A stretch of 64,000 bases of DNA from Patescibacteria group bacterium (GTDB taxonomy: Bacteria > Patescibacteriota > Microgenomatia > Levybacterales > UBA12049). Shown in pieces: positions 41,270 to 55,547 of this stretch. A program made the translations under genes and the position numbers. Positions within the stretch are counted from its first letter, which is position 1. Each line of letters opens with the position of its first letter. Location: contig BPJB01000001.1 in NCBI GenBank assembly GCA_026004395.1, positions 584,910 through 648,909 of the forward strand, written 5' to 3'. The notes beneath the pieces are model-generated. The model saw only the letters and a program-made list of their open reading frames with translations, ran no database searches and had not been told where the DNA came from.

Positions 41270-42235
41270 AACATTGTATATTATCACACATATTATCATT
41301 CATTCATCTTAGAAAATTAGACACCTCAAACTTTCAACAAAAAATAATATCGAATATATTTGAAATACAGTTCTGTGCCCCTCATCAGTGTCTTAATTAC
41401 CAACGCTGCTGGAGTAGTTTTAAGAGAGTTCTTTAAAATCTTACCTCTGTAGTCAGCCAGAACAAAACATTGCTATTGCAAGCATGAAATATTATATTCA
41501 GCATGATTTTGCAGTTGATAAACATGAGTAAACAGTCATTGCATGTATGATCTCTGTGTGAGGTTTTTTGTATGGGGGAGATTCTTACATACGAATCCAA
41601 AATAGTATTTCCCATACAGGAGGAAAAAATGCATTTTCCTGAACGGATAACTATATCTCATCAGCCGCTCCTGCCAGACGTCTGTACACCTGCAAAAGCA
41701 TCTAATATCCAACAATGTGGAGAAAAAATAAGAATTCGTTTTGGAGTTTGTGATATTGCTATCGCACAACTGAAAAGAAAATGAGCAATTAGTTACTTAT
41801 AATCTTTTAGGTATGTAGCGGTAAGGAATCTTATTAATGAAAAAATATATCCCAATAAACATAATTCAATAAATATAATCTTGTTTTGGCACATCTAGGT
41901 GTAAGCCCAAATGCTGCCTTTGACTGCCTCAGAAAACAACTCTCACAACAATATACAATCAGCGATATAGCACGCTCCTGATGATTTTTTTACAAGAGAA
42001 AATCAAAAGAAAGTAAATTATTTATATACCTACCTTCAATTCTTTGTTCAATATTCTCCTGATAAAAACTATATATAAATAGTAGACTTGATCTAAGAAG
42101 AAAAGATGATGTTGGTGAAATGCTCATTGATACAACAGGAGTAACATTCTTACGAAGAGAATCTCACTCTCCATCCCAAAATCATGTAGAATTCGTACCC
42201 ATACGACAGGCAAAGTAGAGATCACTTACAAATTC

Positions 42236-42264
42236 TTGACAGAAAATAACAATTTTAATAAAAT
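42236..42264 (+). promoter_or_regulatory. Sigma70-like promoter (TTGACA, 17 nt, TAAAAT) driving leader copy 1.
   Basis: TTGACA is at 42236..42241 and TAAAAT at 42259..42264. Confidence 0.55.
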
Positions 42265-42378
42265 TAAAAAGATGAGTACGAATCTTTACATTATGGTTTA
42301 CTTTATTGCTCTCCTTAGATGGGGCGGCAATCTGGTGACCATAAGGTAGAAGATACGTATAATAATCCAGAAAAGCCG

Positions 42379-42403
42379 CCTCCCAAAAAAGGGAGGTTTT
42401 TTT
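42379..42403 (+). terminator. Leader copy 1 hairpin: cctccc-aaaaaa-gggagg followed by T7. It contains the Shine-Dalgarno sequence and abuts the start codon.
   Basis: This is part of a 46-nt segment aaaagccgcctcccaaaaaagggaggtttttttatgatctatgaaa that is repeated with 1 mismatch at 45145..45190. The upstream ggggcggc (42321..42328) is complementary to the gccgcc of the 5' arm. Confidence 0.55.
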
Positions 42404-42410
42404 ATGATCT

Positions 42411-43943
42411 ATGAAAGAATTAGAGCAAAGATTACCAACTGAACATTTATCCTCTTATCATGATAGGATAGCTCAATCAGAAGCTAATAATTTTGATCAT
42501 GCTCGATTTACTGATGGGGAAGAAACAACGTCTATACCTCGTACTATTTATGACAGTCGCCTTTTTCTACATCGTTTAGAAGCTAATTCAATTTTAGACG
42601 AAGCTATACGAGAACCTGAAAGAATTCATTTAGGAGAAGTTGTGGATCGATGGGATATTGAGTCATCCCTAAGACCATTTCATACTCTTCCTGAATATCG
42701 CACAGAATATCCTCATACAGTAATTAATGCACTTGGAGAGTTATTCCAAGAGTACAATCAGGCTTTTGTACCACTCGTTGAGGCAAATAAAGAATGGGAG
42801 ACAGATTATCAATACACAAGATATGGGATAAATGGCGATCCCGTCAATCGCTGGGTACAGATAGATATGATTGGTCTGCCTCAAAGATTTTTAGATGCAG
42901 CTTCTCGTATGGATCAGAGTACCGTACGCGAAGTATTAAGACAGCGAATTTTTGAGATTGAAAATTCTCTTGCAATGTATCAATTACTAGAACGCATACA
43001 CTCAAGAGATGGAGAGTCTTCTCTTTTTGATAGAGTATTTCGATCTTCTCTGCAATCCTTAAGAGAACAATATGGAAAACCGATAGCTCTTTTAGCGCTC
43101 ACTGATCAAAAATACAACAGTATGAAAGCATCGGAATTTGGAAAATCAGAAGAGGAACAGATAACAGATGAAGAAGTAAAACGACTATCAGGATTTGATA
43201 GATTATTCGGTCCACAAGAGTTTTCGGAACATTTAGAAGAAAATGGGGGAGAGTGCGAATATTTGCTTTTTGTACGAGCTTCTGATCCCTTGGAGAAATT
43301 GAGAAAACCCAAAACCACATTTAGCATTCCTTTACTCGAAAATCCTGTTACAAGAAGAATTATCAAAGCCAATGCTATTACATTTAATATTGATCAGCCT
43401 GATGAACCTATTATGTCCATGAGGAGGATCAACGATACAAAAGCATATCTTCCAACAATGGGAATGGCATATAGGGCTGATACATTCGAAGATGTTTTTG
43501 AGGAGATAATCTATCGCAGTAATGATCCTGCATTAATAAAACTTAATCCCCAATTGCGAGAATATTTACGCTCACATGGGATAGATCAACAAAAACTTGA
43601 TTCTGGATATGTTTGCTTCCGTGCAAAGCCGATGTTAGGTTCATATGGCTGCTATGGGCATGTGACAGTTGATACCAGTAATGGAGAGACTCGAGGTGAG
43701 TTGCGCAAAGGTATTCGTGAGAGAGGACCATACGTTATTCAACCTGAGATGACAACACCTATCATTGTCAACGAATCAACAGGACAGACCTATACCTACA
43801 TTGATAGAGTTTTTTTTGCTACCGATGGTAGACATATCACATTTATGGGAGGATTTAGATCACTTATGCCACTTGATTCTATTGAAGCACAGAAAAAAAG
43901 AAATCATGGTAACCACTCAACAGTCTGGGCTGAGATTTATTAA
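42411..43943 (+). CDS. Hypothetical 510-aa protein. Its C-terminal region is weakly ATP-grasp-like.
   Basis: GYVCFRAKPMLGSYGCYGHVTV and DRVFFATDGRHITFMGGF resemble the ATP-grasp patterns vvvKP..Gs.G.GV and D.Rv.v..G. The call is weak. Its stop lies 5 nt before the M20 peptidase start. Confidence 0.45.
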   Translation: MKELEQRLPTEHLSSYHDRIAQSEANNFDHARFTDGEETTSIPRTIYDSRLFLHRLEANSILDEAIREPERIHLGEVVDRWDIESSLRPFHTLPEYRTEYPHTVINALGELFQEYNQAFVPLVEANKEWETDYQYTRYGINGDPVNRWVQIDMIGLPQRFLDAASRMDQSTVREVLRQRIFEIENSLAMYQLLERIHSRDGESSLFDRVFRSSLQSLREQYGKPIALLALTDQKYNSMKASEFGKSEEEQITDEEVKRLSGFDRLFGPQEFSEHLEENGGECEYLLFVRASDPLEKLRKPKTTFSIPLLENPVTRRIIKANAITFNIDQPDEPIMSMRRINDTKAYLPTMGMAYRADTFEDVFEEIIYRSNDPALIKLNPQLREYLRSHGIDQQKLDSGYVCFRAKPMLGSYGCYGHVTVDTSNGETRGELRKGIRERGPYVIQPEMTTPIIVNESTGQTYTYIDRVFFATDGRHITFMGGFRSLMPLDSIEAQKKRNHGNHSTVWAEIY

Positions 43944-43947
43944 GTAT

Positions 43948-45018
43948 ATGGAAAATAATATTCTATCCTTAACCAAAAAACTGATAGCTATTAAGTCCAC
44001 TCCGGATAACAACAAGGCATTAGAACAATGTCTTATGGAAGTTCTTACACAACTGAAAGGTTATACAGTTGAAATGTTTGAGAGTAATGGATATAAAAGT
44101 GCTCTGGTATATAACACTCCTAAAAGGCCTAAGAAATTTAAGATTATTTTAAATGGACATCTTGACATTATTCCCGGAAAAGAGAGTCAATACACACCCC
44201 AAATAAAAAATGGGAGACTATATGGAGTGGGAGCTATGGATATGAAAGCAAGTGTAGCTAGCTTTGTTGAGGTTTTTAAAGAGGTGGCTGATAAGATTAA
44301 TTATCCGTTGGGAATACAGCTTGTTACGGATGAGGAGATAGGAGGATTTAATGGAACAAAATATCAAATTGATAACGGTGTCCGAGCAGATTTTGTTATT
44401 GTTGGTGAAACGACCAATTTCAAAATTGAAAATGAAGCCAAAGGTATCATCTGGATGAAAATCTCATCCAATGGCAAAACAGCACATGGGGCATATCCTT
44501 GGATGGGGAAAAATGCTATCTGGAGAATGAATGATTTTCTCAATCTCCTATCAAAAAAATTCCCCCTTCCTACAAAAAAAGAATGGGTTACAACAGTCAA
44601 TCTTGCAAAAATTACAACCAACAATAATACTTTTAATAAAATTCCTGATCAATGTGAAATATGGCTGGATATTCGCTATATACCTGAGGATACAAAAACA
44701 GTTATCAAGGCAATAAAAGATATACTTCCTCAAGGATTTTCACTGCAGATAATAGTGAAAGAACCTGCTCAATTTGTAAAAAATGATAACTCATTTATAA
44801 GACAGCTGCAAAAAATAGGCAGAAAACACCTCTTAAAAAGCGTATCACTAAATCAAGGACAAGGATCATCAGATGCGAGACATTTTACAAGGGTCAAAAC
44901 AGATGCAGTTGAATTTGGGCCTTATGGTCACGGTATGGGAACTGACAATGAATGGATAGATGTTCAAAGTCTTAAGCAATATTCACATATTCTTAAAGAT
45001 TTTTTACTCAACAATTAA
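43948..45018 (+). CDS. M20-family metallopeptidase/amidohydrolase (ArgE/DapE-like). The start is at ATG 43948, not at the track ORF start 43765.
   Basis: NGHLDIIPGKESQ, GVGAMDMKASVASFVEVFK and the ...GETTN... metal-ligand blocks are typical of M20. Confidence 0.75.
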   Translation: MENNILSLTKKLIAIKSTPDNNKALEQCLMEVLTQLKGYTVEMFESNGYKSALVYNTPKRPKKFKIILNGHLDIIPGKESQYTPQIKNGRLYGVGAMDMKASVASFVEVFKEVADKINYPLGIQLVTDEEIGGFNGTKYQIDNGVRADFVIVGETTNFKIENEAKGIIWMKISSNGKTAHGAYPWMGKNAIWRMNDFLNLLSKKFPLPTKKEWVTTVNLAKITTNNNTFNKIPDQCEIWLDIRYIPEDTKTVIKAIKDILPQGFSLQIIVKEPAQFVKNDNSFIRQLQKIGRKHLLKSVSLNQGQGSSDARHFTRVKTDAVEFGPYGHGMGTDNEWIDVQSLKQYSHILKDFLLNN

Positions 45019-45020
45019 TA

Positions 45021-45048
45021 TTGACAAATATTTCTCTTAGGATAAAAT
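45021..45048 (+). promoter_or_regulatory. Sigma70-like promoter (TTGACA, 16 nt, TAAAAT) driving leader copy 2.
   Basis: TTGACA is at 45021..45026 and TAAAAT at 45043..45048, immediately after the M20 stop. Confidence 0.55.
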
Positions 45049-45150
45049 AAAAATATGGATAAGCTTTTCATTCGCAACGTTGTTATTTTCCTCCTTAAAG
45101 GAGGCGGTAATAACGTGGTGATATAACTTATCACCTAGAACAAAAAGCCG

Positions 45151-45175
45151 CCTCCCAAAAAAGGGAGGTTTTTTT
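45151..45175 (+). terminator. Leader copy 2 hairpin, identical to copy 1 (cctccc-aaaaaa-gggagg followed by T7).
   Basis: The upstream ggaggcgg (45101..45108) is complementary to ccgcctcc. An internal hairpin ggtgatataacttatcacc is present at 45117..45135. Confidence 0.55.
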
Positions 45176-45182
45176 ATGATTT

Positions 45183-45920
45183 ATGAAAATTTCGGAATCA
45201 ACCAATCATCAAAGCATTGATACTCGAACTCAGTCTAATAATCCTCTAATAAGAGAGGTTCATGTTGTTTTTGATGCACAACCTGAAGGAGATATTGATG
45301 AAAGTAGAAATGATTTTTCAAGAGAAAGAAAAATAGATATTATAAATCCAGACGGTTATCCCAAAAATATCTATATTGATCCGTATATCATCCAAGAAGC
45401 CACCAAAGAATGGGGTATAGGAGTGAAGCTGGAACTACCACGGAATGTCTTTCATGGAACACAACCTATGGAAGACTATAATCAAGCAACAAGAAGATAT
45501 ATAGAAAAACAATTACAAATCTATGGCAAAGCATACCTTCAGGAAAATCCGATCATTGTAATTGCACTACCAACTTTGATCAACGGTGGAGATGGAACAA
45601 AAGAATCAATAATTTTAGCAATCGGTGATGGTCACCATCGCTTTCGCTACTCAGGAGGGAAAAAAGAGTTTGAGTATCTACCTTCTATTGTCTTTACTCC
45701 GCTACAATACGCTGCTCTTTATAATTTAAACAAGGATCCAAGAGACAAGATTACACCTGAGGAGCTAGAATTGATTTTTATGCAACGTATAGCAGAAGCA
45801 AAACTATCCTTTGAAGCAAGTCTTACCGATAAATGCAAACCTCATCCTTTGCCTCTTTACGGGATACGCACAGTAGAAGAGCTACAAACTCTACTTGACA
45901 CACCTATTCATTCTGCTTAA
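45183..45920 (+). CDS. Hypothetical 245-aa protein with a ParB/sulfiredoxin-fold-like DGHHR motif.
   Basis: ILAIGDGHHRFRYSGG resembles the DGxHR motif of ParB-like nuclease/NTPase domains. The assignment is weak. Confidence 0.35.
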   Translation: MKISESTNHQSIDTRTQSNNPLIREVHVVFDAQPEGDIDESRNDFSRERKIDIINPDGYPKNIYIDPYIIQEATKEWGIGVKLELPRNVFHGTQPMEDYNQATRRYIEKQLQIYGKAYLQENPIIVIALPTLINGGDGTKESIILAIGDGHHRFRYSGGKKEFEYLPSIVFTPLQYAALYNLNKDPRDKITPEELELIFMQRIAEAKLSFEASLTDKCKPHPLPLYGIRTVEELQTLLDTPIHSA

Positions 45921-45968
45921 TATTGATTGTTCTTATTAAACTGCTATGATACAATTACCACAAACTTA

Positions 45969-46042
45969 GGGCGCATAGCTCAGCTGGTTAGAGCGTTGCA
46001 TTGACATTGCAAAGGTCTCTGGTTCGAGTCCAGATGTGCCCA
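45969..46042 (+). tRNA. tRNA-Val (anticodon GAC).
   Basis: GGGCGCA-TA-GCTC-AGCTGGTTA-GAGC-G-TTGCA-TTGACAT-TGCAA-AGGTC-TCTGG-TTCGAGT-CCAGA-TGTGCCC-A. Confidence 0.8.
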
Positions 46043-46137
46043 CAATTATTTAATATTGTATTCAAATAATAACATACTTCTAAAAGAGAACATCTCCTCA
46101 GCTTTACTTCCGTTTTGCTCTGTTCTAAAATGATTTT

Positions 46138-46737
46138 ATGGACACTCAAAATAGTAATTTTCTTTCACGTGAACAAGCATATAGCATTCTCACAAAATAT
46201 GTTAAAACACCCAATCTGATCAAACACTCTCTTGCTACCGAAGCAGTCATGAAAGCTCTCTATCGCAGACTCTATCAAGGGACACCTCTTGATCCTAAGA
46301 TAGAAGAAGAATGGGGTATAACAGGTCTTCTTCACGATGCTGATTATGAAATATCTAAAGGACATCCGGAAAAACATGGACTTTTGCTGTTTGAGAAAGA
46401 ACCTAACAAAATCCCAGAACATATAGCTTATGCTATTAAAGCCCATAACTATGAAAAAACACTCGTTGTTCCCAAGAATCTTCTCGATTGGGCTATTGCC
46501 TGTTGTGATCAACTGACAGGTCTTATTGTTGCAGCAGCACTTATACATCCTGAGAAAAAACTTGCTCCATTAACTACAGAGTTCGTACTCAATAGATTTC
46601 ACGAAAAATCTTTTGCCAAAGGAGCGGATCGAAGATCTATTCTAAAATGTGAAGAAAAACTGCAGATTCCACTTGAAGAGTTTGTTACTATCACCCTTGA
46701 CGCAATGAAAAATATAAGTGATCAACTAGGTTTGTAG
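46138..46737 (+). CDS. HD-domain phosphohydrolase.
   Basis: HSLATEAVMKAL ... GLLHDADYE is the H...HD signature. Confidence 0.7.
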   Translation: MDTQNSNFLSREQAYSILTKYVKTPNLIKHSLATEAVMKALYRRLYQGTPLDPKIEEEWGITGLLHDADYEISKGHPEKHGLLLFEKEPNKIPEHIAYAIKAHNYEKTLVVPKNLLDWAIACCDQLTGLIVAAALIHPEKKLAPLTTEFVLNRFHEKSFAKGADRRSILKCEEKLQIPLEEFVTITLDAMKNISDQLGL

Positions 46738-46766
46738 TTATATCTCAAATCGGTTAGACTATTTTT

Positions 46767-46994
46767 ATGGCCAGAAATCAACCATACGAAAAATCATCTC
46801 TTACACTCCGTGAGATCATTGTGAATAATTTTGTAGGAGGAATTGCATGGGGACTTGGCGTAACTGTTGGACTTGCTATTCTTTTTACTATTTTAGGTTT
46901 TTTTCTGCATCAGCTTAATATTGTACCTTTTTTAGGTAATTTTATTAATGATATTGTTAAATATGTAATGAAAAATAACCCCTATTTAAGATAA
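46767..46994 (+). CDS. Small membrane protein, hypothetical.
   Basis: It is 75 aa with one TM segment (GIAWGLGVTVGLAILFTILGFFL). Confidence 0.3.
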   Translation: MARNQPYEKSSLTLREIIVNNFVGGIAWGLGVTVGLAILFTILGFFLHQLNIVPFLGNFINDIVKYVMKNNPYLR

Positions 46995-47295
46995 TTTGTG
47001 CTTCAAGATCCATAAATTGTCAGAAAGCTTCAACCAGACTATACCTTTAGTTTTTTTTAAGAGGTAGAGATTGAGAATAAAAATATTCATATTTGAAAAA
47101 TTTTTCTGTTAAAAATTAAGTCTAGAAAATAATCAGGATAAACAAACTTCTAAAATACTTCATGAGTAATGAAAATGAGTCTTTATAAACAGGACTAACT
47201 TTGCTATAGTACAGCTTAAGAGAACACATTTGACATGGTAAATTTTAGAGTAATAAAAAAATAAATGGGCAACATTGGGAAATTAAAAATCAACT

Positions 47296-49035
47296 ATGAA
47301 AAATAAAAATCAACAGGAAAAACTCAATCAACTTAGACACTCATGTTCACACCTTCTTGCAGCTGCAGTCTTGGAGCTTTGGCCCAACACCAAACCCACA
47401 ATTGGTCCTGCTATTGAAAATGGATTTTATTATGACTTTGAGTTCCAAGAAAATATAAGTGAAGAAGATCTACCCAAAATAGAGAAAAAAATGCGCGAAA
47501 TTCTTCCTACATGGGAATCTTTCTCTCATAGAGAAGTATCTGCTGACGAAGCAAAGGCTTTCTATAAAAATAATCCTTACAAACTAGAGCTTATAGATGA
47601 AATTATCAAAAAAGGCGAGAAAATCACCTTCTATAAAGCAGGCAAATTTGAGGATCTATGCAGGGGAGGGCATGTTGATCATCCCAATAAAGAAATTGGA
47701 GCATTCAAGCTTCTCTCCCTTGCAGGTGCCTATTGGCGAGGAAGTGAAAAAAATAAAATGTTGACAAGGATTTATGGAACAGCATTTCCAACACAAAAAG
47801 AGTTAAATGAGTATCTTTTAATGCTGGAGGAAGCAAAAAAACGCGATCATAAAAAACTGGGGCAGCAACTGGGATTATTTATGTTTCATGAGACAGCCCC
47901 AGGAATGCCTTATTGGCTACCAAAAGGAGTTATTATTTACAATGAACTAATCAATTTTTGGAGAGAAGAACACTACAATCGAGGATATCAGGAGATTATG
48001 TCACCTCTTTTGAATAAAAAAGCGTTATACGAAACATCTGGACATTGGGAGCATTATAGAGAAAATATGTTCGTTGTCGAAACAGAGGAGAAAGAAGTCT
48101 ATGGTATTAAAGCTATGAACTGTCCAAACGCAATGATTGTTTTTGGAAGTTCCTCTCGTTCATACCGCGATCTTCCACTTCGTCTTGGGGATACAGATAC
48201 TTTACATAGATATGAACGATCCGGAACACTTAATGGGCTCCTCAGAGTCAGAGAGTTTCGTCAAGACGATGCTCATATTTTTGTAACTGAAGAACAGATA
48301 AAATCTGAATATCAGAATATCTTTGCAATTGTTGAAAAGTTTTATTCTATATTTAAAATCTCATATTCTTTTAGATTAGGGACGAGGCCAGAAAAATACA
48401 TGGGAGACCTTAAGACATGGAATAAAGCAGAAACAGCTCTTAAAGAAATTCTCAAAGAAAGCGGAAAAGAATATACCATTGAAGAGGGCGACGGCGCATT
48501 TTATGGTCCCAAGATTGACATTTTGATGAAAGATTCATTAGGCAGATCATGGCAAATGGGAACAATTCAACTTGATTTTCAGCAGCCCAAAAATTTCAAC
48601 CTTCGTTATACCGATATTGACGGTAAGGAAAAAATGCCCGTTGTGATTCATCGAGTGGTCTATGGATCATTAGAACGATTTATTGGTATCTTGCTAGAAC
48701 ATTTTGCTGGTGCCTTCCCGATTTGGCTTTCTCCTATTCAAGTAATGTTACTTCCTATTGCCGATAGGCACGTAGAATATGCACAGGAAACAGCTGATAA
48801 ATTACGCCGCGCTAAAATAAGAGTCTCCATAGATACGCGTTCAGAAACATTGCAAGCTAAGATTCGTGAGGCTACTTTACAAAAGGTACCAATTCTGGGT
48901 ATAATAGGGGATAAAGAAATTGATCAGAATTCTATCTCGGTTAGACTGAGAAATGGAGAAGATCAAGGTCAAGTAGAAATCTCTCAATTTATACAAAGGT
49001 TAAGAGAAGACATTGATAAAAAGACACAAAGCTAA
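47296..49035 (+). CDS. thrS: Threonyl-tRNA synthetase (short form without the N-terminal TGS domain).
   Basis: Zinc-site context HSCSHLLAAAV is present, along with class II motifs and the anticodon-binding domain. It heads the thrS-infC-rpmI-rplT cluster. Confidence 0.9.
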   Translation: MKNKNQQEKLNQLRHSCSHLLAAAVLELWPNTKPTIGPAIENGFYYDFEFQENISEEDLPKIEKKMREILPTWESFSHREVSADEAKAFYKNNPYKLELIDEIIKKGEKITFYKAGKFEDLCRGGHVDHPNKEIGAFKLLSLAGAYWRGSEKNKMLTRIYGTAFPTQKELNEYLLMLEEAKKRDHKKLGQQLGLFMFHETAPGMPYWLPKGVIIYNELINFWREEHYNRGYQEIMSPLLNKKALYETSGHWEHYRENMFVVETEEKEVYGIKAMNCPNAMIVFGSSSRSYRDLPLRLGDTDTLHRYERSGTLNGLLRVREFRQDDAHIFVTEEQIKSEYQNIFAIVEKFYSIFKISYSFRLGTRPEKYMGDLKTWNKAETALKEILKESGKEYTIEEGDGAFYGPKIDILMKDSLGRSWQMGTIQLDFQQPKNFNLRYTDIDGKEKMPVVIHRVVYGSLERFIGILLEHFAGAFPIWLSPIQVMLLPIADRHVEYAQETADKLRRAKIRVSIDTRSETLQAKIREATLQKVPILGIIGDKEIDQNSISVRLRNGEDQGQVEISQFIQRLREDIDKKTQS

Positions 49036-49603
49036 ACAGGACAATCTTCGATATCAATATCGCACTAATGAGCGTATTCAGGCTCCATCAGTGCGGGTAT
49101 TAGATCAGGATGGCAAGCAGATTGGAGTGTTTTCAAGAAGAGAAGCACTACAACTGGCAGCAAATCAAGGTTTAGACCTTGTCGAGATAGCGCCACAAGC
49201 TCAGCCACCTGTTGTCAAAATTATTGATTTCAATAAGTTCCTGTATCAAGAAGCAAAGAAAAAGCAAGAGGAAAAAAGAAAAGCAAAAGTGTCTGAAACA
49301 AAAGAGATTAGACTTGGACCCTTTATGTCAGAAAATGACCTTGCGGTCATGATCAATAGAGGGAGAGAATTTCTGGAAGAAGGAGATAAAATTAGACTTG
49401 TTGTCAAATTTAAAGGACGACAAATTACTCATCCAGAATTTGGAAATAATATAATTAATAGAGTAATTGATGCTCTCAAAGACTTCTCAAAAGTTGACAG
49501 AGAGCCACATATGGAGGGGAAGCAAATGATAGCGCTTCTCTCACCGGAAAGGAAAAAACATGCCGAAAAAAAAGATCAAAAGATCAGTAGCACGAAGATT
49601 TAA
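49013..49603 (+). CDS. infC: Translation initiation factor IF-3.
   Basis: VRVLDQDGKQIGVFSRREALQLAANQGLDLVEIAPQAQPPVVKIIDFNKFLY matches the IF3 N-domain consensus. The ATG at 49013 overlaps the thrS 3' end by 23 nt. Confidence 0.85.
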   Translation: MIKRHKAKQDNLRYQYRTNERIQAPSVRVLDQDGKQIGVFSRREALQLAANQGLDLVEIAPQAQPPVVKIIDFNKFLYQEAKKKQEEKRKAKVSETKEIRLGPFMSENDLAVMINRGREFLEEGDKIRLVVKFKGRQITHPEFGNNIINRVIDALKDFSKVDREPHMEGKQMIALLSPERKKHAEKKDQKISSTKI

Positions 49604-49757
49604 AATCACCAAAACCGGAAAGGTGATGTTTGGTCATCAATACGGAAGTCATTTAAAACTTAAAAAGTCAAAACGTAGAATTCGTCGTCAAAAAGAGCCA
49701 GGAGTTCTTACTGGTACATTTGCAAAGAAAATAAAAAAGATGCTCGGAGCTGCATAA
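49560..49757 (+). CDS. rpmI: 50S ribosomal protein L35.
   Basis: MPKKKIKRSVARRFKITKTGKV. Confidence 0.9.
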   Translation: MPKKKIKRSVARRFKITKTGKVMFGHQYGSHLKLKKSKRRIRRQKEPGVLTGTFAKKIKKMLGAA

Positions 49758-49840
49758 AAAGTAAAGTAATTTAGCAGAAGGAAATTAGCTTTCAGCTTAT
49801 CGAGAATTAAAAAAATTAGTTGTAATTGGAATAAATCATT

Positions 49841-50191
49841 ATGGCAAGAGTCAAAAGAGGCGTCATATCACGCGCAAAACATAAAAAACTGCTCAGTCTT
49901 ACTAAAGGTTATAGAGGCACAAAATCGCGTCTAGTTAAAGTTGCACGCGAGGCAGAGCTTCATGCTGGTCAATATGCTTATCATGGTCGCAAATTACGCA
50001 AACGAGACTTTCGTACTCTCTGGATCACGCGCATTGGTGAAGCTGTTAAAAAGGAAAATCTTTCATATAGTAAATTTATGAACAAATTGAAAAAAGCTCA
50101 TATTGAACTTGATCGTAAAATCCTCAGTGATCTAGTAGTCAATGAGCCAGAAGTTTTTAAAAAATTAGTTGACAAAGTCAAGAGTTTATAA
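49841..50191 (+). CDS. rplT: 50S ribosomal protein L20.
   Basis: MARVKRGVISRAKHKKLLSLTKGYRGTKSRLVKVAREA. Confidence 0.9.
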   Translation: MARVKRGVISRAKHKKLLSLTKGYRGTKSRLVKVAREAELHAGQYAYHGRKLRKRDFRTLWITRIGEAVKKENLSYSKFMNKLKKAHIELDRKILSDLVVNEPEVFKKLVDKVKSL

Positions 50192-50311
50192 TAGTATCAT
50201 AAAACTTACTATGAATAGAGCTTTTTATTTTTGGTTTTACTTTACTCCCTACTCGGGAGGTGTGTTAGTGGCGTAAAAGTCAACTAACAAAGGTAAAACC
50301 ACCTTTGACTA

Positions 50312-50334
50312 CCTCCCAAAAGGGAGGTTTTTTT
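50312..50334 (+). terminator. Leader copy 3 hairpin (cctccc-aaaa-gggagg followed by T7) upstream of the aromatic amino-acid operon.
   Basis: It has the same arms and U-run as copies 1 and 2. The upstream cgggaggt (50254..50261) is complementary to acctccc. It also serves as a plausible terminator for rplT. Confidence 0.5.
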
Positions 50335-50343
50335 GTTGAGAAT

Positions 50344-50571
50344 ATGGAATTAGATAGATTTTTACCAACAAAAGGTATACCAAAAGCAGAACTTATTATT
50401 GACAAAAAGACTGGTCTACCATTAACCGTAAGACCTGATAGACAACCTACGCTGGGATTTTGTGAAAATCCAGTTCTATCAGGTGGTCAGCGAATGTCTT
50501 TAACTGATGAAAAAGAATTTGTTATTTACGAAGCAAAGGTAAATAAACCTGAAAAACCGTTAGGATACTAA
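50344..50571 (+). CDS. Small hypothetical protein (75 aa from ATG 50344), the first gene of the aromatic amino-acid operon.
   Basis: The track ORF begins at a TTG (50305) that lies inside the hairpin, so the ATG at 50344 is preferred. No motif was recognised. Its stop is 1 nt before the DAHP synthase start. Confidence 0.35.
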   Translation: MELDRFLPTKGIPKAELIIDKKTGLPLTVRPDRQPTLGFCENPVLSGGQRMSLTDEKEFVIYEAKVNKPEKPLGY

Positions 50572-50572
50572 T

Positions 50573-51397
50573 ATGATTGAGAATTTAAGAAAACCTATCA
50601 TTATAGCTGGACCATGTGCTGCTGAGAATATGCCGCAAATAGAGTTAACCATTCGTGAGGTTAAAACGCGTGAAATACCCATAATGCGAGCATCAATAGT
50701 TAAACCTCGAACAGAAAACAGCTGGGATGGAATTGGAATAGAGGAAGGAATCCCTATACTAAGAAGAATAAAAGAAGCTGGACTTATTCCTGCTACTGAG
50801 GTCCTTGACATCGAGGAAGCACAAAAAGTTATTGATGGTGTTCTAGGGCAAGATGAAGGAAATATTATGCTTTGGATTGGAGCTCGCAATCAAAATCATC
50901 GCTTTCAGCGCAATCTAGGAAAACTCGCTAGTGAAGATAGGCGTCTGATAGTTGGCGCAAAAAATCAAATATGGTCTGGTGATGCAGAGAGACACTTTAG
51001 AGGCATAATCTCGCATATTTGTGATGGTGGTGGATTTGATAGATCCAGGCTAATTATGATCCATAGAGGTTTTTCTGATACAAACACTAAAGGTTATCGA
51101 AATACACCCGATTATAATATGGCACTGAAAATCAAATACGAGGAAGGAGTTATCATGCTTCTTGATCCATCTCATATTGGCGGAAGCATAGAAAAAGTCA
51201 TAGAAGTAACACAAGAAGGAATGACATTGGAAAGGCAGGGTGTTATTTTTGATGGATTAATGATCGAAATTCACCCAAATAGAGATACTGCAAAGACAGA
51301 TTCAAAACAACAGCTTACTTGGAGAGAATATGACGAATATATCGAACCCCTAGTAAGAGGAGGTACTATCTATGAAACAAAGTCAGCAGCAGACTAA
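50573..51397 (+). CDS. 3-deoxy-D-arabino-heptulosonate-7-phosphate synthase (type I-beta, catalytic core only).
   Basis: IIAGPCAAE, KPRTENSWDG and LLDPSH blocks indicate the DAHPS/KDO8PS family. KPRT rather than KANRS, together with the aromatic-operon context, favours DAHPS. Confidence 0.65.
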   Translation: MIENLRKPIIIAGPCAAENMPQIELTIREVKTREIPIMRASIVKPRTENSWDGIGIEEGIPILRRIKEAGLIPATEVLDIEEAQKVIDGVLGQDEGNIMLWIGARNQNHRFQRNLGKLASEDRRLIVGAKNQIWSGDAERHFRGIISHICDGGGFDRSRLIMIHRGFSDTNTKGYRNTPDYNMALKIKYEEGVIMLLDPSHIGGSIEKVIEVTQEGMTLERQGVIFDGLMIEIHPNRDTAKTDSKQQLTWREYDEYIEPLVRGGTIYETKSAAD

Positions 51398-53057
51398 ACC
51401 TAATGTTCTTATTATAGGTGGTAGCGGACGAATGGGGAAGTGGTTTCAATCGTTTTTTGAAAGCAAGAAGATTAGCGTTCTTATTTATGGAAGAGCATCA
51501 AAAAAATCTCTAACTAAGCTTCTGAAAAAAACTGACATCATTATAGTCTCTGTTCCTATTTTTCAGACAGAAAAGACAATCAAATCAGTTCTTCCATATC
51601 TTCGAAGCGATCAACTTCTCTGCGATATAGCATCTCTTAAAGACCTTTCACTCAAAGCTATGAAGGATGCCAAGTGTGGAACGCTAGGAATGCATCCTCT
51701 ATTTGGACCAAGCATTCTTTCTCCTCAAGGACAAAAAATTGTTTTTTGCCACCAGCATGATAACGATCATGTCACATTTCTAAAAGAACTTTTTTTGCAA
51801 TCAGGAATGGAAATTGTCGATCTTAAAACATCAGAACATGATCAACAAATGGCAGTTATCCAAGCTCTAATTCATGCAGTAAATATCTCACTTGCAAAAA
51901 CCCTTGATAACCAAACATCAATTAATGCTAAATTACAAACACCTCTTTTTACTCTTCAATCTCTTGTTACAAGTAGAGTACTGCAACAAGAACCGCATCT
52001 TATAACGGACATACAACTGCTCAATCCGCATTTCTTGCCAATAATCAAGGAGTTACAAAAATCCATTAATTTATTGGTAGACATTAATATCAAGCAGGAT
52101 CGGCAAAGATTCACTGATCTTTTAGAAAAGCTTCGCAAGAAAACACAGAAAATTGCTCCATATGCTCTCTATCAAACAAATAAAATTCTTACCATGATTG
52201 ATGATCAATCTTTAAATTTGTCTTCGTCATCTCTACAAATAGATCCAAATTTTCCCTTAAAAGTAGCATATCTTGGCCCTGAGGGAACAAATACTCACCA
52301 GGCTGCAATGAAAGTATTTGATAATCAAAAAAATATTTTTGTTGCTAAAGAAGTCATTGATGATATTTTTCAAGCAGTTAATGAAGATGAAGTGGATGCT
52401 GGTATTGTACCTGCTGAAAATTCACTTCAGGGGACAGTGCGTGAAACATTAGATTTACTCTCTAATTCTCCACTTAAAGTTGTTGGCTCATTCACGCTAC
52501 CTATTCACCACTGTCTTCTCTCATTGGAAAACAATTTTAAAAAGATCACAACAGTTGTATCTCATCCTCAAGCACTGGCTCAATGCAAAAATTGGCTAAC
52601 AGATAATCTCCCTAAAGCAAAAATAGTTACAACTACAAGTACTACAGCTTCTTTAAAGAGTCCAAGAAAACACGAAGCTTATATCGCCTCAGAAAAAGCT
52701 AGCAAGATTTATAAAGTTCCGATTCTTGCAAAAAATATTGAAGATAACGCAAGTAATTTAACGCGCTTTTATGTTATTGCCAAATACGATCTTCCAGTAA
52801 AAGGTCTGAATCAAAGCAATACGTTACTCTTTCTGACGATTTTTAATCGTGTGGGAATTCTTAGAGATATACTTGATGTATTTGCTCGTAAGGGAATCAG
52901 TTTAACTAAATTAGAATCTCGTCCAAGCCTTGAAAAAGTCTGGGACTACTGTTTTTATATTGAAGTTGACCACGAACAAGAAAGTAAAAAACTTAAAAGA
53001 GCATTAACTGAGATACAAAAATACTGTAGTACAGTTCGTATCTTAGGACGAACATAA
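51372..53057 (+). CDS. Fused prephenate dehydrogenase (TyrA) and prephenate dehydratase plus ACT domain (PheA).
   Basis: The N-terminal Rossmann fold is VLIIGGSGRMGKWF, with LGMHPLFGP (TyrA). The C-terminal half has VAYLGPEGTNTHQAAMKVF (PDT) and TKLESRPS (the ACT/PheA hallmark). Confidence 0.7.
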   Translation: MKQSQQQTKPNVLIIGGSGRMGKWFQSFFESKKISVLIYGRASKKSLTKLLKKTDIIIVSVPIFQTEKTIKSVLPYLRSDQLLCDIASLKDLSLKAMKDAKCGTLGMHPLFGPSILSPQGQKIVFCHQHDNDHVTFLKELFLQSGMEIVDLKTSEHDQQMAVIQALIHAVNISLAKTLDNQTSINAKLQTPLFTLQSLVTSRVLQQEPHLITDIQLLNPHFLPIIKELQKSINLLVDINIKQDRQRFTDLLEKLRKKTQKIAPYALYQTNKILTMIDDQSLNLSSSSLQIDPNFPLKVAYLGPEGTNTHQAAMKVFDNQKNIFVAKEVIDDIFQAVNEDEVDAGIVPAENSLQGTVRETLDLLSNSPLKVVGSFTLPIHHCLLSLENNFKKITTVVSHPQALAQCKNWLTDNLPKAKIVTTTSTTASLKSPRKHEAYIASEKASKIYKVPILAKNIEDNASNLTRFYVIAKYDLPVKGLNQSNTLLFLTIFNRVGILRDILDVFARKGISLTKLESRPSLEKVWDYCFYIEVDHEQESKKLKRALTEIQKYCSTVRILGRT

Positions 53058-53104
53058 ATGTTGTGCTTAGGAGAATTTATCAGTATACTTAATACTATAA
53101 TACT

Positions 53105-53365
53105 ATGAAAGACCTTGCAAAATTACGTACAGAAATTACACAACTAGATACACAACTTTTAACACTTCTTGCAAAGCGATTACAGCTTGTTAGCAAAATA
53201 GGAGAATACAAAAAAATGCACAATTTACCTATTAGAGATGAAAAACGAGAACAGGAAATCTTACAAGATCTTTATGAGAAAGGAAAGAGTTTACATATCT
53301 CTCAAGAATTAATTAAATTTATCTGGAAAAGAATATTTCAGGAAGCTTACAAGCTTGAAAATTAA
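53105..53365 (+). CDS. Chorismate mutase (AroQ class).
   Basis: It is 86 aa. LRTEITQLDTQLLTLLAKRLQLVSKIGEYKK fits AroQ helix 1. Confidence 0.65.
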   Translation: MKDLAKLRTEITQLDTQLLTLLAKRLQLVSKIGEYKKMHNLPIRDEKREQEILQDLYEKGKSLHISQELIKFIWKRIFQEAYKLEN

Positions 53366-54289
53366 ATGATGGAACAGATACTTTATTTTAACGGTAAATT
53401 TGTAAAAGAATCCGAAGTGCGTATTTCACCAATGACACACGCCCTTCATTACGGCACTGGATGTTTTGAGGGTATACGCGCTTATTACAATAACGATGAT
53501 AATGCTCTTTATATTTTTCGAATGAAAGAGCATTTCGAGCGATTCAAAAAATCCTGTAAATTGCTTTTTATTACTCTTCCTCATAGCGTTGATGAGCTTT
53601 GTGAGGTAACTAAAAAATTAGTTCAAAAGAACTTTAATGAAACGGATCTTTATATCAGACCTCTAGCATATAAATCCGATCTTGCAGTTGGTAACTTTCA
53701 TTTACCTTCGCTTAAGGATAGCCTACTCATTTATACTGTACCCCTTGGTCGCTATTTACAAGCAGAGGAAGGAATACGAGTAAATGTCTCCTCGTGGACA
53801 AGAGTAAGTGATAATTCTATTCCTCCACGAGCAAAAATTACAGGATCCTATATCAATACAGCACTTGCAAAAACAGAAAGTGTATTTAATGGGTATCATG
53901 AGGCTCTCTTCATGGATAAAAACGGTCATATAGTTGAAGGAAGTGCAGAAAACATTTTTGTAGTGAAAAACGGCAAGATTTACACTCCTTATGTTGCTGA
54001 TGATATTTTGCAAGGAATAACACGCGATACCATAATTAAACTTTGTCAAGATGAATTAGGAATTGCAGTTGAGGAAAGAAGTATTGATCGCTCGGAACTC
54101 TATCAGGTTGATGAAATATTTTTGGTAGGAACAGGAGCAGAAGTATCTTCGGTTGTAGAAGTTGATAAAAGAGAAATAGGAGATGGAAAAGTTGGTCCAA
54201 TTGCAAAACGGATAAAAGAACTGTACTTTGATATCGTACATGGTAAAAATAAAAAATATCAGCAATGGTTAACAAAGGTAACAAAATAG
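53366..54289 (+). CDS. Class IV (branched-chain/D-amino-acid type) aminotransferase, probably serving as the aromatic aminotransferase here.
   Basis: HYGTGCFEGIRAY ... VVEVDKREIGDG matches the BCAT fold-type IV pattern. Confidence 0.75.
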   Translation: MMEQILYFNGKFVKESEVRISPMTHALHYGTGCFEGIRAYYNNDDNALYIFRMKEHFERFKKSCKLLFITLPHSVDELCEVTKKLVQKNFNETDLYIRPLAYKSDLAVGNFHLPSLKDSLLIYTVPLGRYLQAEEGIRVNVSSWTRVSDNSIPPRAKITGSYINTALAKTESVFNGYHEALFMDKNGHIVEGSAENIFVVKNGKIYTPYVADDILQGITRDTIIKLCQDELGIAVEERSIDRSELYQVDEIFLVGTGAEVSSVVEVDKREIGDGKVGPIAKRIKELYFDIVHGKNKKYQQWLTKVTK

Positions 54290-54412
54290 CAAAAAGGAGA
54301 TATCTATTATCCTATAATAAAACTTAGTTAACCAAAGAAATAGAAAGGAGAAGTAGAATTTTTTCAGAGAAAAAACTGAAGTTATTAAAAAATTTTCTTT
54401 GAGGATTTTATT

Positions 54413-55471: not shown

Positions 55472-55547
55472 TGTTTAGGGAAAAATTCAAGCTACATTTG
55501 CAAAATTTTTTAAATTGAATTTGCATGAATAGAGTATTAGTAAATAT

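What the first reader, a model, noticed from the sequence alone, without database searches (positions are those of the whole stretch)
42236..50343. Three-copy leader RNA element: an SD-sequestering terminator hairpin abutting the start codon, with an upstream anti-terminator complement and (in two copies) its own promoter
A 46-nt segment (aaaagccgcctcccaaaaaagggaggtttttttATGATyTATGAAA) occurs at 42371..42416 and at 45145..45190 with a single mismatch. A shorter third version (cctcccaaaagggaggttttttt) sits at 50312..50334. Each copy forms a cctccc/gggagg hairpin whose 3' arm is the Shine-Dalgarno sequence, followed by U7 and then directly by the start codon. Further upstream, each copy has a G-rich segment complementary to the 5' arm (ggggcggc at 42321, ggaggcgg at 45101, cgggaggt at 50254), which is the classic terminator/anti-terminator architecture. 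Copies 1 and 2 share about 90 nt of diverged leader (tcctta.a..gg.ggcgg.aat...gtggtga), and each lies about 130-150 nt downstream of a TTGACA-N16/17-TAAAAT promoter. The promoters argue that these are 5' regulatory leaders, not only terminators of the upstream genes. The three copies control unrelated cargo: an ATP-grasp-like/M20 operon, a ParB-fold-like gene, and the Phe/Tyr biosynthesis operon. The element matches no riboswitch class I can recall. It lacks the T-box consensus and is shorter than a T-box.
Basis: seen in the sequence. Interest (0 to 1): 0.65.

Follow-up and report, generated by a model that had tools for sequence, protein, structure and literature searches.

The report
Leader-peptide transcription attenuators, three paralogous copies
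The three repeated hairpins are the terminators of classic ribosome-sensing "leader peptide" attenuators, like E. coli pheM or pheL and not a new riboswitch. They occur here in a tiny-genome Patescibacteria (CPR) bacterium, where they control Phe/Tyr synthesis genes (with pheST next downstream) and a widespread uncharacterised enzyme pair.

Summary
CCTCCC-loop-GGGAGG-T7 occurs three times in the window (0 expected). Each copy has an upstream complement to its 5' arm and its own sigma-70-type promoter, the third copy included.

Each leader carries a short ORF that starts 6-13 nt after the -10 box, has no Shine-Dalgarno sequence, and contains the "anti-terminator".
- Copy 3: MNRAFYFWFYFTPYSGGVLVA. 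It lies between rplT and a Phe/Tyr operon followed by pheST, the position of E. coli pheM ([14 protein letters not shown]).
- Copy 1: MSTNLYIMVYFIALLRWGGNLVTIR.
- Copy 2: MDKLFIRNVVIFLLKGGGNNVVI.
- Copies 1 and 2 are alignable paralogues of copy 3.

Folding with a ribosome footprint frees the anti-terminator only when the ribosome sits on the hydrophobic or aromatic codons.

Relatives support this. Aromatic uORFs plus terminators lie upstream of pheS or DAHP synthase in related metagenome contigs. About 36 diverse CPR genomes have them upstream of the ATP-grasp-like/M20 pair. There Trp is 3.7-fold enriched, and anti-terminator complementarity has mean z = -3.1.

No Rfam family matches, including T-box and riboswitch models.

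Verdict: these are new members of a known kind. The role of GGGAGG as the Shine-Dalgarno sequence is unproven, because it lies 14-16 nt from the in-frame start codon.

The parts
42236..42264 (+). Promoter of leader 1: TTGACA-17-TAAAAT. The -10 box ends 7 nt before the uORF ATG.
   Evidence: 11 of 12 matches. Conserved in L002, L003 and L004.
42272..42349 (+). uORF 1, a leader peptide: MSTNLYIMVYFIALLRWGGNLVTIR*. It has no SD and is leaderless or nearly so.
   Evidence: Orthologues keep the frame and the peptide, MS[TRK]NLYIM[VG]Y[FL]IALLRW[GS]GNLVT[IM][RK], with synonymous changes.
42276..42360 (+). Long hairpin P1 of leader 1 (regions 1:2). Region 1 is CTCTCC at 42309-42314. Region 2, the anti-terminator strand, is GGGGCGGC at 42321-42328.
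   Evidence: z = -6.0. Compensatory changes at leader positions 8/86 and 9/85 in L002-L004.
42375..42403 (+). Region 3 (GCCGCCTCCC), region 4 (GGGAGG) and T7: the intrinsic terminator of leader 1.
   Evidence: Region 2:3 duplex is -17.6 kcal/mol against -10.9 for shuffles.
42411..45018 (+). Cargo of leader 1: a 510-aa ATP-grasp-like protein (42411-43943) and an ArgE/DapE-family M20 deacylase (43948-45018).
   Evidence: The pair is found in 55 of the 62 other loci searched by tblastn, of which 59 are diverse CPR genome loci.
45021..45048 (+). Promoter of leader 2: TTGACA-16-TAAAAT. The -10 box ends 6 nt before the uORF ATG.
45055..45126 (+). uORF 2: MDKLFIRNVVIFLLKGGGNNVVI*. Region 1 is CCTCC at 45090-45094. 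Region 2 is GGAGGCGG at 45100-45107.
   Evidence: Orthologues read M[DA][KE]x[FL][IA]R[NH][VI]VIFLL..
45147..45175 (+). Region 3, region 4 and T7: the terminator of leader 2.
   Evidence: z = -4.25.
45183..45920 (+). Cargo of leader 2: a 245-aa protein restricted to this lineage, function unknown.
   Evidence: 6 homologues only. (no Pfam hit). (model unusable).
50169..50197 (+). Promoter of leader 3: TTGACA-17-TAGTAT. It lies over the end of rplT.
   Evidence: Conserved in L002 and L004.
50211..50276 (+). uORF 3: MNRAFYFWFYFTPYSGGVLVA*, with seven consecutive aromatic codons. Region 1 is CTCCC at 50245-50249. Region 2 is GGGAGGT at 50255-50261.
   Evidence: The only changes in orthologues fall in unpaired positions. 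Homologous uORFs occur in L065, L087, L096, L110 and others.
50308..50334 (+). Region 3 (CTACCTCCC), region 4 (GGGAGG) and T7: the terminator of leader 3.
   Evidence: z = -4.3.
50344..57503 (+). Cargo of leader 3: a 75-aa ORF, DAHP synthase, a TyrA-PheA fusion, chorismate mutase and a class IV aminotransferase. pheS and pheT follow, with no terminator found before pheS.

Best explanation
All three copies are ribosome-mediated (leader-peptide) transcription attenuators of one paralogous family.

Proposed sequence of events:
1. Transcription starts 0-6 nt before a short ORF that has no Shine-Dalgarno sequence. This leaderless start is inferred from promoter geometry.
2. The 5' half of the ORF (region 1 and its flanks) pairs with the 3' half (region 2, the GGNGGN Gly codons) in a long hairpin, P1.
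3. If P1 forms, region 3 (CCTCCC) is free to pair with region 4 (GGGAGG). RNA polymerase then terminates at the U7 tract.
4. If the ribosome stalls on the hydrophobic or aromatic codons just upstream of region 1 because the cognate charged tRNA is scarce, it holds P1 open. Region 2 then pairs with region 3, the terminator cannot form, and the operon is transcribed.
5. In that state GGGAGG is also single-stranded. This may additionally help translation, but that step is inferred and weak.

Copy by copy:
- Copy 3 senses Phe/Tyr/Trp. It is the counterpart of E. coli pheM and pheL: it sits between rplT and pheST, with Phe/Tyr biosynthesis genes placed behind the leader.
- Copies 1 and 2 are diverged duplicates whose sensitive codons are a mix (L Y I M V Y F I and F I R N V V I F). 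They most likely report the supply of several hydrophobic amino acids.

Shown here: the sequences, structures, conservation and codon statistics. Inferred: translation of the uORFs, the transcription start sites, and the identity of the sensed amino acids for copies 1 and 2.
For: 1. uORFs are present in all copies and conserved in frame in the syntenic loci L002-L004 (89-71% protein identity), with synonymous changes.
2. Copy 3 has seven consecutive aromatic codons in front of DAHP synthase, TyrA-PheA and chorismate mutase. It gives a sub-threshold Rfam Phe_leader hit (33 bits, E = 0.014).
3. Each leader has four regions: 1:2 in a long hairpin, a 2:3 complement, and a 3:4 terminator. Folds have z = -4.5 to -7.2.
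4. With a 28-nt ribosome footprint, on the RNA as it exists before region 4 is made, region 3 is about 100% paired only for P-site codons 4-11 in copy 3. That puts the A site on F5..T12. The window is codons 4-11 in copy 2 and 1-12 in copy 1. Pairing of region 3 is 3-49% with no ribosome (3%, 49% and 40% for copies 1, 2 and 3), and 3-8% (copy 1), about 50% (copy 2) and 10-30% (copy 3) with the ribosome on region 2.
5. The 2:3 pairs are 81% paired against 55-65% for slid controls. There is one C-G to U-A switch between paralogues.
6. The synteny matches E. coli thrS-infC-rpmI-rplT-pheM-pheST, with PheM = [14 protein letters not shown] (PMC5371410).
7. In 13 of 26 related contigs with an rplT-pheS gap over 150 nt there is an aromatic uORF, e.g. 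MNHNINYFWFYFTPDTGGSLVE, several of them followed by a CCTCCC..GGGAGG-T7 terminator (7 of the 13 match that pattern). The same is seen upstream of DAHP synthase.
8. Upstream of the ATP-grasp-like/M20 pair in about 36 diverse CPR loci:
   - the most hydrophobic 10-residue window of the uORFs scores 7.4 against 3.8 in shuffles, and 17 of 36 loci reach p<=0.05;
   - Trp is 3.7-fold and Phe and Tyr 1.8-fold enriched against equally selected shuffles;
   - complementarity to the terminator's 5' arm has mean z = -3.1, and 30 of 37 loci (the three window copies included) are below -1.64;
   - the -10 box ends 6-13 nt before the uORF ATG in 29 of the 33 leaders (the 11 of the window and L002-L004 included) whose promoter matches at least 9 of 12, with no SD.
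9. Prephenate dehydratase lies in the same operon in L032 and L039.
Against: - There is no experimental evidence of any kind: no RNA-seq, Term-seq or ribosome profiling. The transcription start sites and leaderless translation are inferred from promoter geometry only.
- Copies 1 and 2 lack a run of one amino acid. Their peptide conservation could partly reflect the RNA-structure constraint.
- The equilibrium model also predicts the anti-terminator when a ribosome sits at the stop codon of uORF 1 or 2. The classical model does not expect this.
- In the full-length equilibrium model, many of the more distant CPR loci keep the terminator regardless of ribosome position.
- Covariation support for the 2:3 pairing is thin: one event.
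- In the stalled state a nested 1:4 pairing is possible when region 1 is not covered, so the exact stall window is uncertain.
Confidence: 0.8

Rival explanations
1. One reading: a new ligand- or tRNA-binding leader RNA (riboswitch-like or T-box-like). Its aptamer would decide between the anti-terminator and the terminator without translation.
For: - The terminator/anti-terminator architecture and own promoters are present.
- The leaders are strongly structured.
- No known RNA family matches, so novelty is not excluded by Rfam.
Against: - Apart from the terminator, the three leaders and their many relatives share an ORF with a biased codon content rather than a conserved structured core.
- The structure is essentially one long hairpin with no multi-stem junction or conserved loops.
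- The codon content matches the cargo: an aromatic run before Phe/Tyr genes and pheST.
- There is no T-box hit even at E<=10.
Confidence: 0.04
2. The short ORFs are genes for functional hydrophobic micro-proteins, such as membrane peptides or precursors modified by the ATP-grasp enzyme. Each would have its own promoter and a leaky terminator that sets the peptide-to-enzyme ratio. No amino-acid sensing would be involved.
For: - The peptides are conserved among close relatives.
- They have a hydrophobic core.
- An ATP-grasp-like enzyme lies downstream, and such enzymes can modify peptides.
Against: - Many of the peptides are only 15-25 aa, too short to span a membrane.
- Across CPR only the composition is conserved, not the sequence, with Trp, Phe and Tyr enriched.
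- The same kind of peptide precedes pheS, DAHP synthase and PfkB genes, which have no ATP-grasp gene.
- Significant anti-terminator complementarity inside or next to the ORF is unnecessary under this model.
- E. coli pheM sits at the same syntenic position.
Confidence: 0.07
3. Copies 1 and 2 (but not copy 3) are ribosome-dependent attenuators that report general translation status or ribosome stalling, for example by antibiotics or global starvation. They would not report particular amino acids.
For: - There is no single-amino-acid run in uORF 1 or 2.
- The model gives the anti-terminator for almost any ribosome position in the first half of uORF 1, and also at the stop codon.
- The cargo of copy 2 is an ORFan.
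Against: - Both are alignable paralogues of the aromatic leader. Their codons differ from it by single first-position changes (TTT to CTT, ATT or GTT; TGG to ATG) and stay hydrophobic.
- Leaders of the orthologous ATP-grasp operon in other CPR lineages are clearly aromatic-rich.
Confidence: 0.12
4. They are only the ordinary terminators of the upstream genes (M20, rplT), copied by duplication, with chance upstream complements.
For: Copies 2 and 3 lie downstream of same-strand genes. The 46-mer is identical in copies 1 and 2.
Against: - A conserved promoter and uORF sit between each upstream stop codon and the hairpin.
- In L004 the orthologous leader 1 follows a divergently oriented His_Phos gene directly, with no same-strand gene before it. 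In the window only a frameshifted same-strand gene remnant lies between.
- The complements score far better than shuffles.
- The leaders are more conserved than the flanking genes: leader 3 has 4 changes in 93 nt against L004.
Confidence: 0.02

Closest known systems
E. coli pheST-ihfA operon attenuator (leader peptide PheM) and pheA attenuator (PheL; Rfam Phe_leader RF01859)
   Same: - A Phe-rich leader peptide, with alternative hairpins ending in an intrinsic terminator.
- Identical synteny for pheM: thrS-infC-rpmI-rplT-leader-pheS-pheT.
- Similar peptides: [14 protein letters not shown] against MNRAFYFWFYFTP....
- The cargo is Phe-tRNA synthetase and/or Phe biosynthesis genes.
   Different: - The Rfam Phe_leader score is 33 bits, below the gathering score of 55, so it is not a sequence member.
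- The uORF here has no SD and starts 6-13 nt after the -10 box.
- The codons are mixed Phe/Tyr/Trp rather than almost pure Phe.
- Phe/Tyr biosynthesis genes are inserted between the leader and pheST.
- The terminator lies within 16 nt of the next gene's start.
- The organism is a Patescibacteria (CPR) bacterium.
E. coli ilvGMEDA (IlvL) and thr (ThrL) multivalent attenuators. Established knowledge, not tested here.
   Same: Leader peptides with mixed regulatory codons for several hydrophobic or related amino acids. This resembles uORF 1 (L Y I M V Y F I A L L) and uORF 2 (F I R N V V I F L L).
   Different: - There is no sequence relationship.
- The cargo here is not a branched-chain amino-acid pathway. 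It is an ATP-grasp-like/M20 pair and an ORFan.
- Which amino acids are sensed is unknown.
Leaderless poly-Cys short ORF attenuators of mycobacteria (bioRxiv 10.1101/834739)
   Same: A regulatory uORF that begins at or next to the 5' end of the transcript, has no SD, and whose codon content matches the pathway it controls.
   Different: - The phylum and the amino acid differ.
- Here the read-out is a clear intrinsic terminator.
- Leaderless initiation is only inferred here from promoter geometry.
Classical attenuators predicted in Actinobacteria and Proteobacteria by comparative genomics (PMC1262725)
   Same: The same logic and the same kind of evidence: a uORF with regulatory codons plus alternative helices upstream of amino-acid and aminoacyl-tRNA synthetase genes.
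   Different: No such report for Patescibacteria/CPR was found in the library searched.
T-box leaders and riboswitches with terminator expression platforms (e.g. the SAM-I/IV riboswitch at 15629-15732 in this window)
   Same: The same expression-platform layout in this genome: a terminator whose 3' arm is purine-rich, then a T-run, then the start codon a few nt later.
   Different: The three leaders have no aptamer, no specifier or T-box sequence, and no Rfam hit for these families.

Membership tests
Ribosome-mediated (leader-peptide) transcription attenuator | A short ORF in the leader between the promoter and the terminator | tested here: met
   uORFs at 42272-42349, 45055-45126 and 50211-50276. 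They are conserved in frame in L002-L004.
Ribosome-mediated (leader-peptide) transcription attenuator | Regulatory codons enriched for the amino acid(s) linked to the cargo | tested here: met
   - Copy 3 has F Y F W F Y F before Phe/Tyr genes and pheST.
- Relatives do the same.
- For copies 1 and 2 the test is inconclusive: the codons are mixed hydrophobic. Family-wide, Trp is 3.7-fold and Phe and Tyr 1.8-fold enriched.
Ribosome-mediated (leader-peptide) transcription attenuator | Mutually exclusive 1:2, 2:3 and 3:4 helices, with 3:4 forming an intrinsic terminator | tested here: met
Ribosome-mediated (leader-peptide) transcription attenuator | A ribosome stalled at the regulatory codons favours the anti-terminator | tested here: met
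   Met in silico only, with footprint-constrained folding. Clean for copy 3. For copies 1 and 2 the anti-terminator is also predicted with the ribosome at the stop codon.
Ribosome-mediated (leader-peptide) transcription attenuator | The uORF is translated and read-through responds to charged-tRNA supply | not testable with these tools
   This needs ribosome profiling, reporter fusions or Term-seq.
Rfam Phe_leader (RF01859) | Covariance-model score at or above the gathering score (55 bits) | tested here: not met
   33.4 bits for copy 3 and 20.9 bits for copy 1. The relationship is functional analogy, not family membership.
T-box leader (Rfam RF00230) | Specifier loop plus T-box sequence; a covariance-model hit | tested here: not met
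   No hit even at E<=10 over 42000-50600.
Any Rfam riboswitch class | A covariance-model hit to an aptamer | tested here: not met
   - The only riboswitch in the window at gathering score is SAM-I/IV at 15629.
- Within 42000-50600 the only riboswitch-model match at E<=10 is a chance-level azaaromatic (yjdF) hit on the opposite strand, at 21 bits against a gathering score of 45.
- Nothing at gathering score in 14 related loci.
SD-sequestering (translational) expression platform | The sequestered purine tract is the functional SD, 5-10 nt from the start codon | tested here: inconclusive
   - GGGAGG lies 14, 14 and 16 nt from the in-frame ATG.
- The ATG 7 nt away is out of frame, or missing in an orthologue.
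- Relatives have a separate AAGGAGGTG between the T-run and the start codon.

The most novel reading that the evidence does not exclude
Two linked ideas remain open.
1. The ATP-grasp-like ligase plus ArgE/DapE-type deacylase pair, conserved in most Patescibacteria lineages and without any annotation, could be an unrecognised route for supplying aromatic (or more broadly hydrophobic) amino acids. Its expression would be set by leaderless Trp/Phe/Tyr-rich leader peptides.
2. The pheM-type attenuator between rplT and pheST could be ancient, shared by CPR and Proteobacteria, rather than convergent.
Probability: 0.3. Interest if true: 0.7.

Novelty: new member of a known kind. Interest (0 to 1): 0.45.

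Why it matters
- It turns a suspected new riboswitch class into a well-understood mechanism, which prevents a false lead.
- Leader-peptide attenuation appears to be widely used in Patescibacteria (CPR). The library searched holds no report of attenuators in this group, whose gene regulation is almost unstudied.
- The leaders work as a built-in annotation. They tie a CPR-wide uncharacterised ATP-grasp-like/M20 operon, and several small ORFs, to the supply of aromatic or hydrophobic amino acids. That gives a testable functional hypothesis for genes labelled 'hypothetical'.
- The rplT-leader-pheST arrangement, shared with E. coli, raises the question of how old this attenuator is.

Tried and rejected
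- Rfam at gathering score and at E<=10 gave only sub-threshold hits to leader families (Phe, Trp, Thr). No T-box and no credible riboswitch match.
- The full-length equilibrium ribosome-mask model worked for the window copies. It was uninformative for many distant loci with long terminators. I replaced it with the 'before region 4' model and a duplex-complementarity test.
- A covariance model built from the 11 leaders found no further copy in the window or in L002-L004. It gave only weak hits in relatives. These were nevertheless real leaders.
- The profile search of the 510-aa family against PDB sequences found nothing. Only a weak ATP-grasp fold similarity emerged.
- The 245-aa protein has no Pfam or NCBIfam hit, and its AF2 model has pLDDT 37. 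Its fold, and the 'ParB-like' idea, are left open.
- A search of phage records with leader 1 found nothing.
- I could not scan the rest of the source genome for further copies. It appears to be Patescibacteria group bacterium KatS3mg089, with a 1.08-Mb contig.
- RiPP-precursor and micro-protein readings were considered and judged unlikely (see rival explanations).

Full report
**1. The observation**

The pattern CCTCCC-N3-8-GGGAGGTTTT occurs three times in the 64-kb window, at 42379, 45151 and 50312, all on the + strand. None is expected in 100 dinucleotide shuffles. The 46-mer AAAAGCCGCCTCCCAAAAAAGGGAGGTTTTTTTATGATYTATGAAA occurs at 42371-42416 and at 45143-45188.

Promoter-like sites TTGACA-17-TAAAAT (42236) and TTGACA-16-TAAAAT (45021) score 11 of 12. 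Copy 3 also has one, TTGACA-17-TAGTAT at 50169. All three leaders fold far better than shuffles, with z = -6.0, -7.2 and -4.5. In the whole window only four terminator-like hairpins directly precede a same-strand gene start: these three, and the expression platform of a SAM-I/IV riboswitch in front of metK.

**2.

Each leader holds a short ORF that starts 7, 6 or 13 nt after the -10 hexamer and has no Shine-Dalgarno sequence:
- uORF 1: MSTNLYIMVYFIALLRWGGNLVTIR
- uORF 2: MDKLFIRNVVIFLLKGGGNNVVI
- uORF 3: MNRAFYFWFYFTPYSGGVLVA

It is itself paired, in a long hairpin that covers nearly the whole ORF, with a CCTCC-like stretch a few codons upstream. The leaders therefore have the four classical regions: 1:2, 2:3 and 3:4.

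**3. Context and organism**

The 245-aa ORF after copy 2 is 100% identical to a protein of "Patescibacteria group bacterium KatS3mg089" on a 1.08-Mb contig. The gene order is:
- leader 1, then a 510-aa protein and an ArgE/DapE-family M20 deacylase;
- leader 2, then the 245-aa ORFan, tRNA-Val, two small genes, thrS, infC, rpmI and rplT;
- leader 3, then a 75-aa ORF, DAHP synthase, a TyrA-PheA fusion, chorismate mutase, an aminotransferase, pheS and pheT.

The 510-aa protein has no Pfam, NCBIfam or PDB sequence match. A confident AF2 model (pLDDT 86) resembles ATP-grasp ligases weakly; the top hit is 3n6x at E = 7e-5.

**4. Orthologous leaders**

Three syntenic contigs (L002, L003 and L004, with 89, 82 and 71% identity in the 510-aa protein) carry the same leaders.
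- The uORFs keep frame and peptide, with synonymous and conservative changes.
- In leader 1, changes at positions 8/86 and 9/85 of the long hairpin are compensatory.
- In leader 3, the only 3-4 changes in 93 nt fall in unpaired positions, while the neighbouring proteins are 86-88% identical.

All eleven leaders align from the ATG onward. uORF 1 differs from uORF 3 mostly by single first-position changes (TTT to CTT, ATT or GTT; TGG to ATG). The three copies are therefore paralogues. RNAalifold on this alignment returns the 2:3 helix nested in a 1:4 helix, with a C-G to U-A switch between paralogues. Counted directly, the 2:3 helix is 81% paired against 55-65% for slid controls, but it has only that one double change.

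**5. Mechanism test in silico**

I masked a 28-nt ribosome footprint at each codon and folded the RNA as it exists before region 4 is transcribed.
- With no ribosome, region 3 is 3% (copy 1), 49% (copy 2) and 40% (copy 3) paired.
- In copy 3, region 3 is about 100% paired only for P-site codons 4-10, and 80% at codon 11. That places the A site on F5 Y6 F7 W8 F9 Y10 F11 T12, exactly the aromatic run.
- In copy 2, the window is P-site codons 4-11, with the A site on F I R N V V I F.
- In copy 1, the window is P-site codons 1-12.
- Elsewhere, pairing of region 3 is 3-8% (copy 1), about 50% (copy 2) and 10-30% (copy 3).

The full-length equilibrium version gives the same picture for the window copies. 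There are caveats. For copies 1 and 2 the anti-terminator is also favoured with a ribosome at the stop codon. A nested 1:4 helix can form if region 1 is uncovered. These are equilibrium approximations of a kinetic process.

**6. Copy 3 is a pheM-type leader**

E. coli K-12 has thrS-infC-rpmI-rplT-pheM-pheS-pheT, with PheM = [14 protein letters not shown]. pheM is a Phe-rich leader peptide that controls pheST by attenuation (PMC5371410; see also PMC1262725).

Eighty metagenome contigs with PheS 60-92% identical to the window's were fetched. Most that reach far enough upstream show infC-rpmI-rplT-pheS.
- In 13 of 26 contigs with an rplT-pheS gap over 150 nt there is an aromatic uORF. Seven of the 13 also match a CCTCC..GGAGG-T-run terminator pattern.
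- Examples are MNHNINYFWFYFTPDTGGSLVE in L065 and MKSNLVNYFWFYFTPSKGVLMS, MNRVAFWFYFTSLTGR, MKTLTAAFFYFTNPTGR, MELTNLKNFGFFFTFA and MTKQNKFFAFYFFTS in other contigs.
- In L065 the uORF is followed by CGACCTCCCAAACGGGAGG-T7, a 78-aa ORF and pheS.
- The same leaders precede DAHP synthase in L091, L103 and L110, a PfkB kinase in L114, and a PDT-like gene in L077.
- Twelve contigs with gaps of 50-126 nt have no leader.

In the window no terminator separates the aminotransferase gene from pheS. pheST may therefore still be under leader 3; this is an inference.

**7. Leader 1 belongs to a CPR-wide pattern**

The 510-aa gene was found in 59 genome loci from many Patescibacteria lineages. In a tblastn search of those loci plus L001-L004, 55 of the 62 loci other than the short L001 fragment also hold the M20 gene, in most directly after the 510-aa gene. 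In L032 and L039 prephenate dehydratase follows in the same orientation. Most loci have a terminator 20-200 nt before the gene and a uORF with a hydrophobic core between a promoter and that terminator.

Statistics against dinucleotide shuffles of the same regions:
- The most hydrophobic 10-residue window scores 7.4 against 3.8, and 17 of 36 loci reach p<=0.05.
- Within those windows Trp is 3.7-fold and Phe and Tyr 1.8-fold enriched against equally selected shuffles. Ile, Leu and Val are near 1.1-1.2. Trp is present in 23 of 34 loci.
- Complementarity between the upstream 120 nt and the terminator's 5' arm has mean z = -3.1, and 30 of 37 loci (the three window copies included) fall below -1.64.
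- The -10 hexamer ends 6-13 nt before the uORF ATG in 29 of the 33 leaders (the 11 of the window and L002-L004 included) with a good promoter match, with no SD.

In Microgenomates-type loci the covariance model built from the window leaders picks up the leader directly. The peptides there are MNINYSNNYWFFFHPLQREAVL, MKINYSTNHFWFHFYPLNGE.. and similar. These resemble the pheS leaders. The ancestral leader of the ATP-grasp-like/M20 operon thus looks aromatic. The window's uORF 1 is a drifted version that retains Y6, Y10 and F11.

**8. Leader 2**

Its cargo has only six homologues, all close, and no recognisable domain. The AF2 model is unusable. The leader is a paralogue of leader 1, with Ile/Val-rich sensitive codons that are conserved in the orthologues as [IA]R[NH][VI]VIF. 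Relatives also carry same-design leaders with Ile/Leu/Asn-rich uORFs, such as MKSLFIINLLINA, before 63-82-aa ORFs of unknown function. This clade therefore reuses the module with different codon content.

**9. The Shine-Dalgarno claim**

The ATG that abuts the U7 tract in copies 1 and 2 is out of frame with the long ORF in the window, L002 and L003. It is in frame in L004 copy 1 and absent in L002 copy 2. The in-frame ATGs lie 14, 14 and 16 nt after GGGAGG, whereas recognisable SDs in this window sit 5-9 nt from their starts. In relatives a separate AAGGAGGTG lies between the T-run and the start codon. Sequestration of a functional SD is therefore possible, since no other SD is present in the window copies, but it is not shown.

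**10. Comparison and verdict**

- Mechanistically these are classical leader-peptide attenuators.
- They are not members of Rfam Phe_leader (33 bits against a gathering score of 55), nor of T-box or any riboswitch family.
- The closest relative in position and function is E. coli pheM. The multivalent ilv and thr leaders are the closest analogy for copies 1 and 2. The mycobacterial leaderless poly-Cys uORFs (10.1101/834739) are the closest analogy for the SD-less start.
- I found no report of attenuators in Patescibacteria/CPR in the library.
- The finding is ordinary in mechanism and new in host range. It has a useful by-product: it links a CPR-wide uncharacterised enzyme pair to the supply of aromatic or hydrophobic amino acids.

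Noticed in passing
window 15629-15747 and ORF 15754-16860: A SAM-I/IV riboswitch (45.5 bits, above the gathering score) lies directly before metK. Its terminator, GGCCTCTC..GAGAGGTT followed by a T-run, ends 6 nt before the ATG. This is the same 'terminator abutting the start codon' layout as the three leaders.
   Followed up: partly
window about 41550-42236 (+): Upstream of leader 1 lies a remnant of a gene that is intact in L002 (229 aa) and L003 (218 aa). Here it is split over three reading frames, so it is a pseudogene or an assembly error. In L002 its stop codon overlaps the -35 box of leader 1.
   Followed up: partly
window 42404-42413 and 45176-45185; L007, L009, L012, L013, L051, L077, L088, L091 and L114 just after their terminators: A recurrent T7-[AG]TG[GA] motif follows the terminator. 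In the window it reads ATGATYTATGA. The first ATG is not the gene start, and the reason for its conservation is unexplained.
   Followed up: no
L007, L009, L012, L013 and L019 (reading frame open from about 2350-2750 to about 5300): In Microgenomates-type genomes the ATP-grasp-like gene is about 950 aa long. It has an N-terminal extension of about 500 aa with no Pfam match, and the leader sits in front of the extended gene.
   Followed up: partly
L032 3756-4679 and L039 6415-7260: Prephenate dehydratase (PDT plus ACT domains) follows the ATP-grasp-like/M20 pair in the same orientation. In L039 it directly follows the M20 gene; in L032 a 314-aa ORF lies between. This independently links the pair to phenylalanine metabolism.
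   Followed up: partly
L088 2859-2958, L090 777-885, L109 821-929 and L124 2121-2225: Leaders of the same design carry Ile/Leu/Asn-rich uORFs, such as MKSLFIINLLINA and MLNNLVKRFMNLINSLLGRSGS. They precede 63-82-aa ORFs without Pfam matches, a few kb upstream of infC.
   Followed up: partly
window 22170-46043: Eight tRNA genes are scattered singly on both strands rather than clustered. tRNA-Val(GAC) at 45969-46043 sits right after the cargo of leader 2.
   Followed up: no
window 50211-50252 compared with E. coli pheM (L144 2227-2271): The peptides MNRAFYFWFYFTP and [14 protein letters not shown] share 8 of 13 positions with one gap, and the genes are at the same syntenic site. This could be ancient homology or convergence; a sequence this short cannot decide.
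   Followed up: partly
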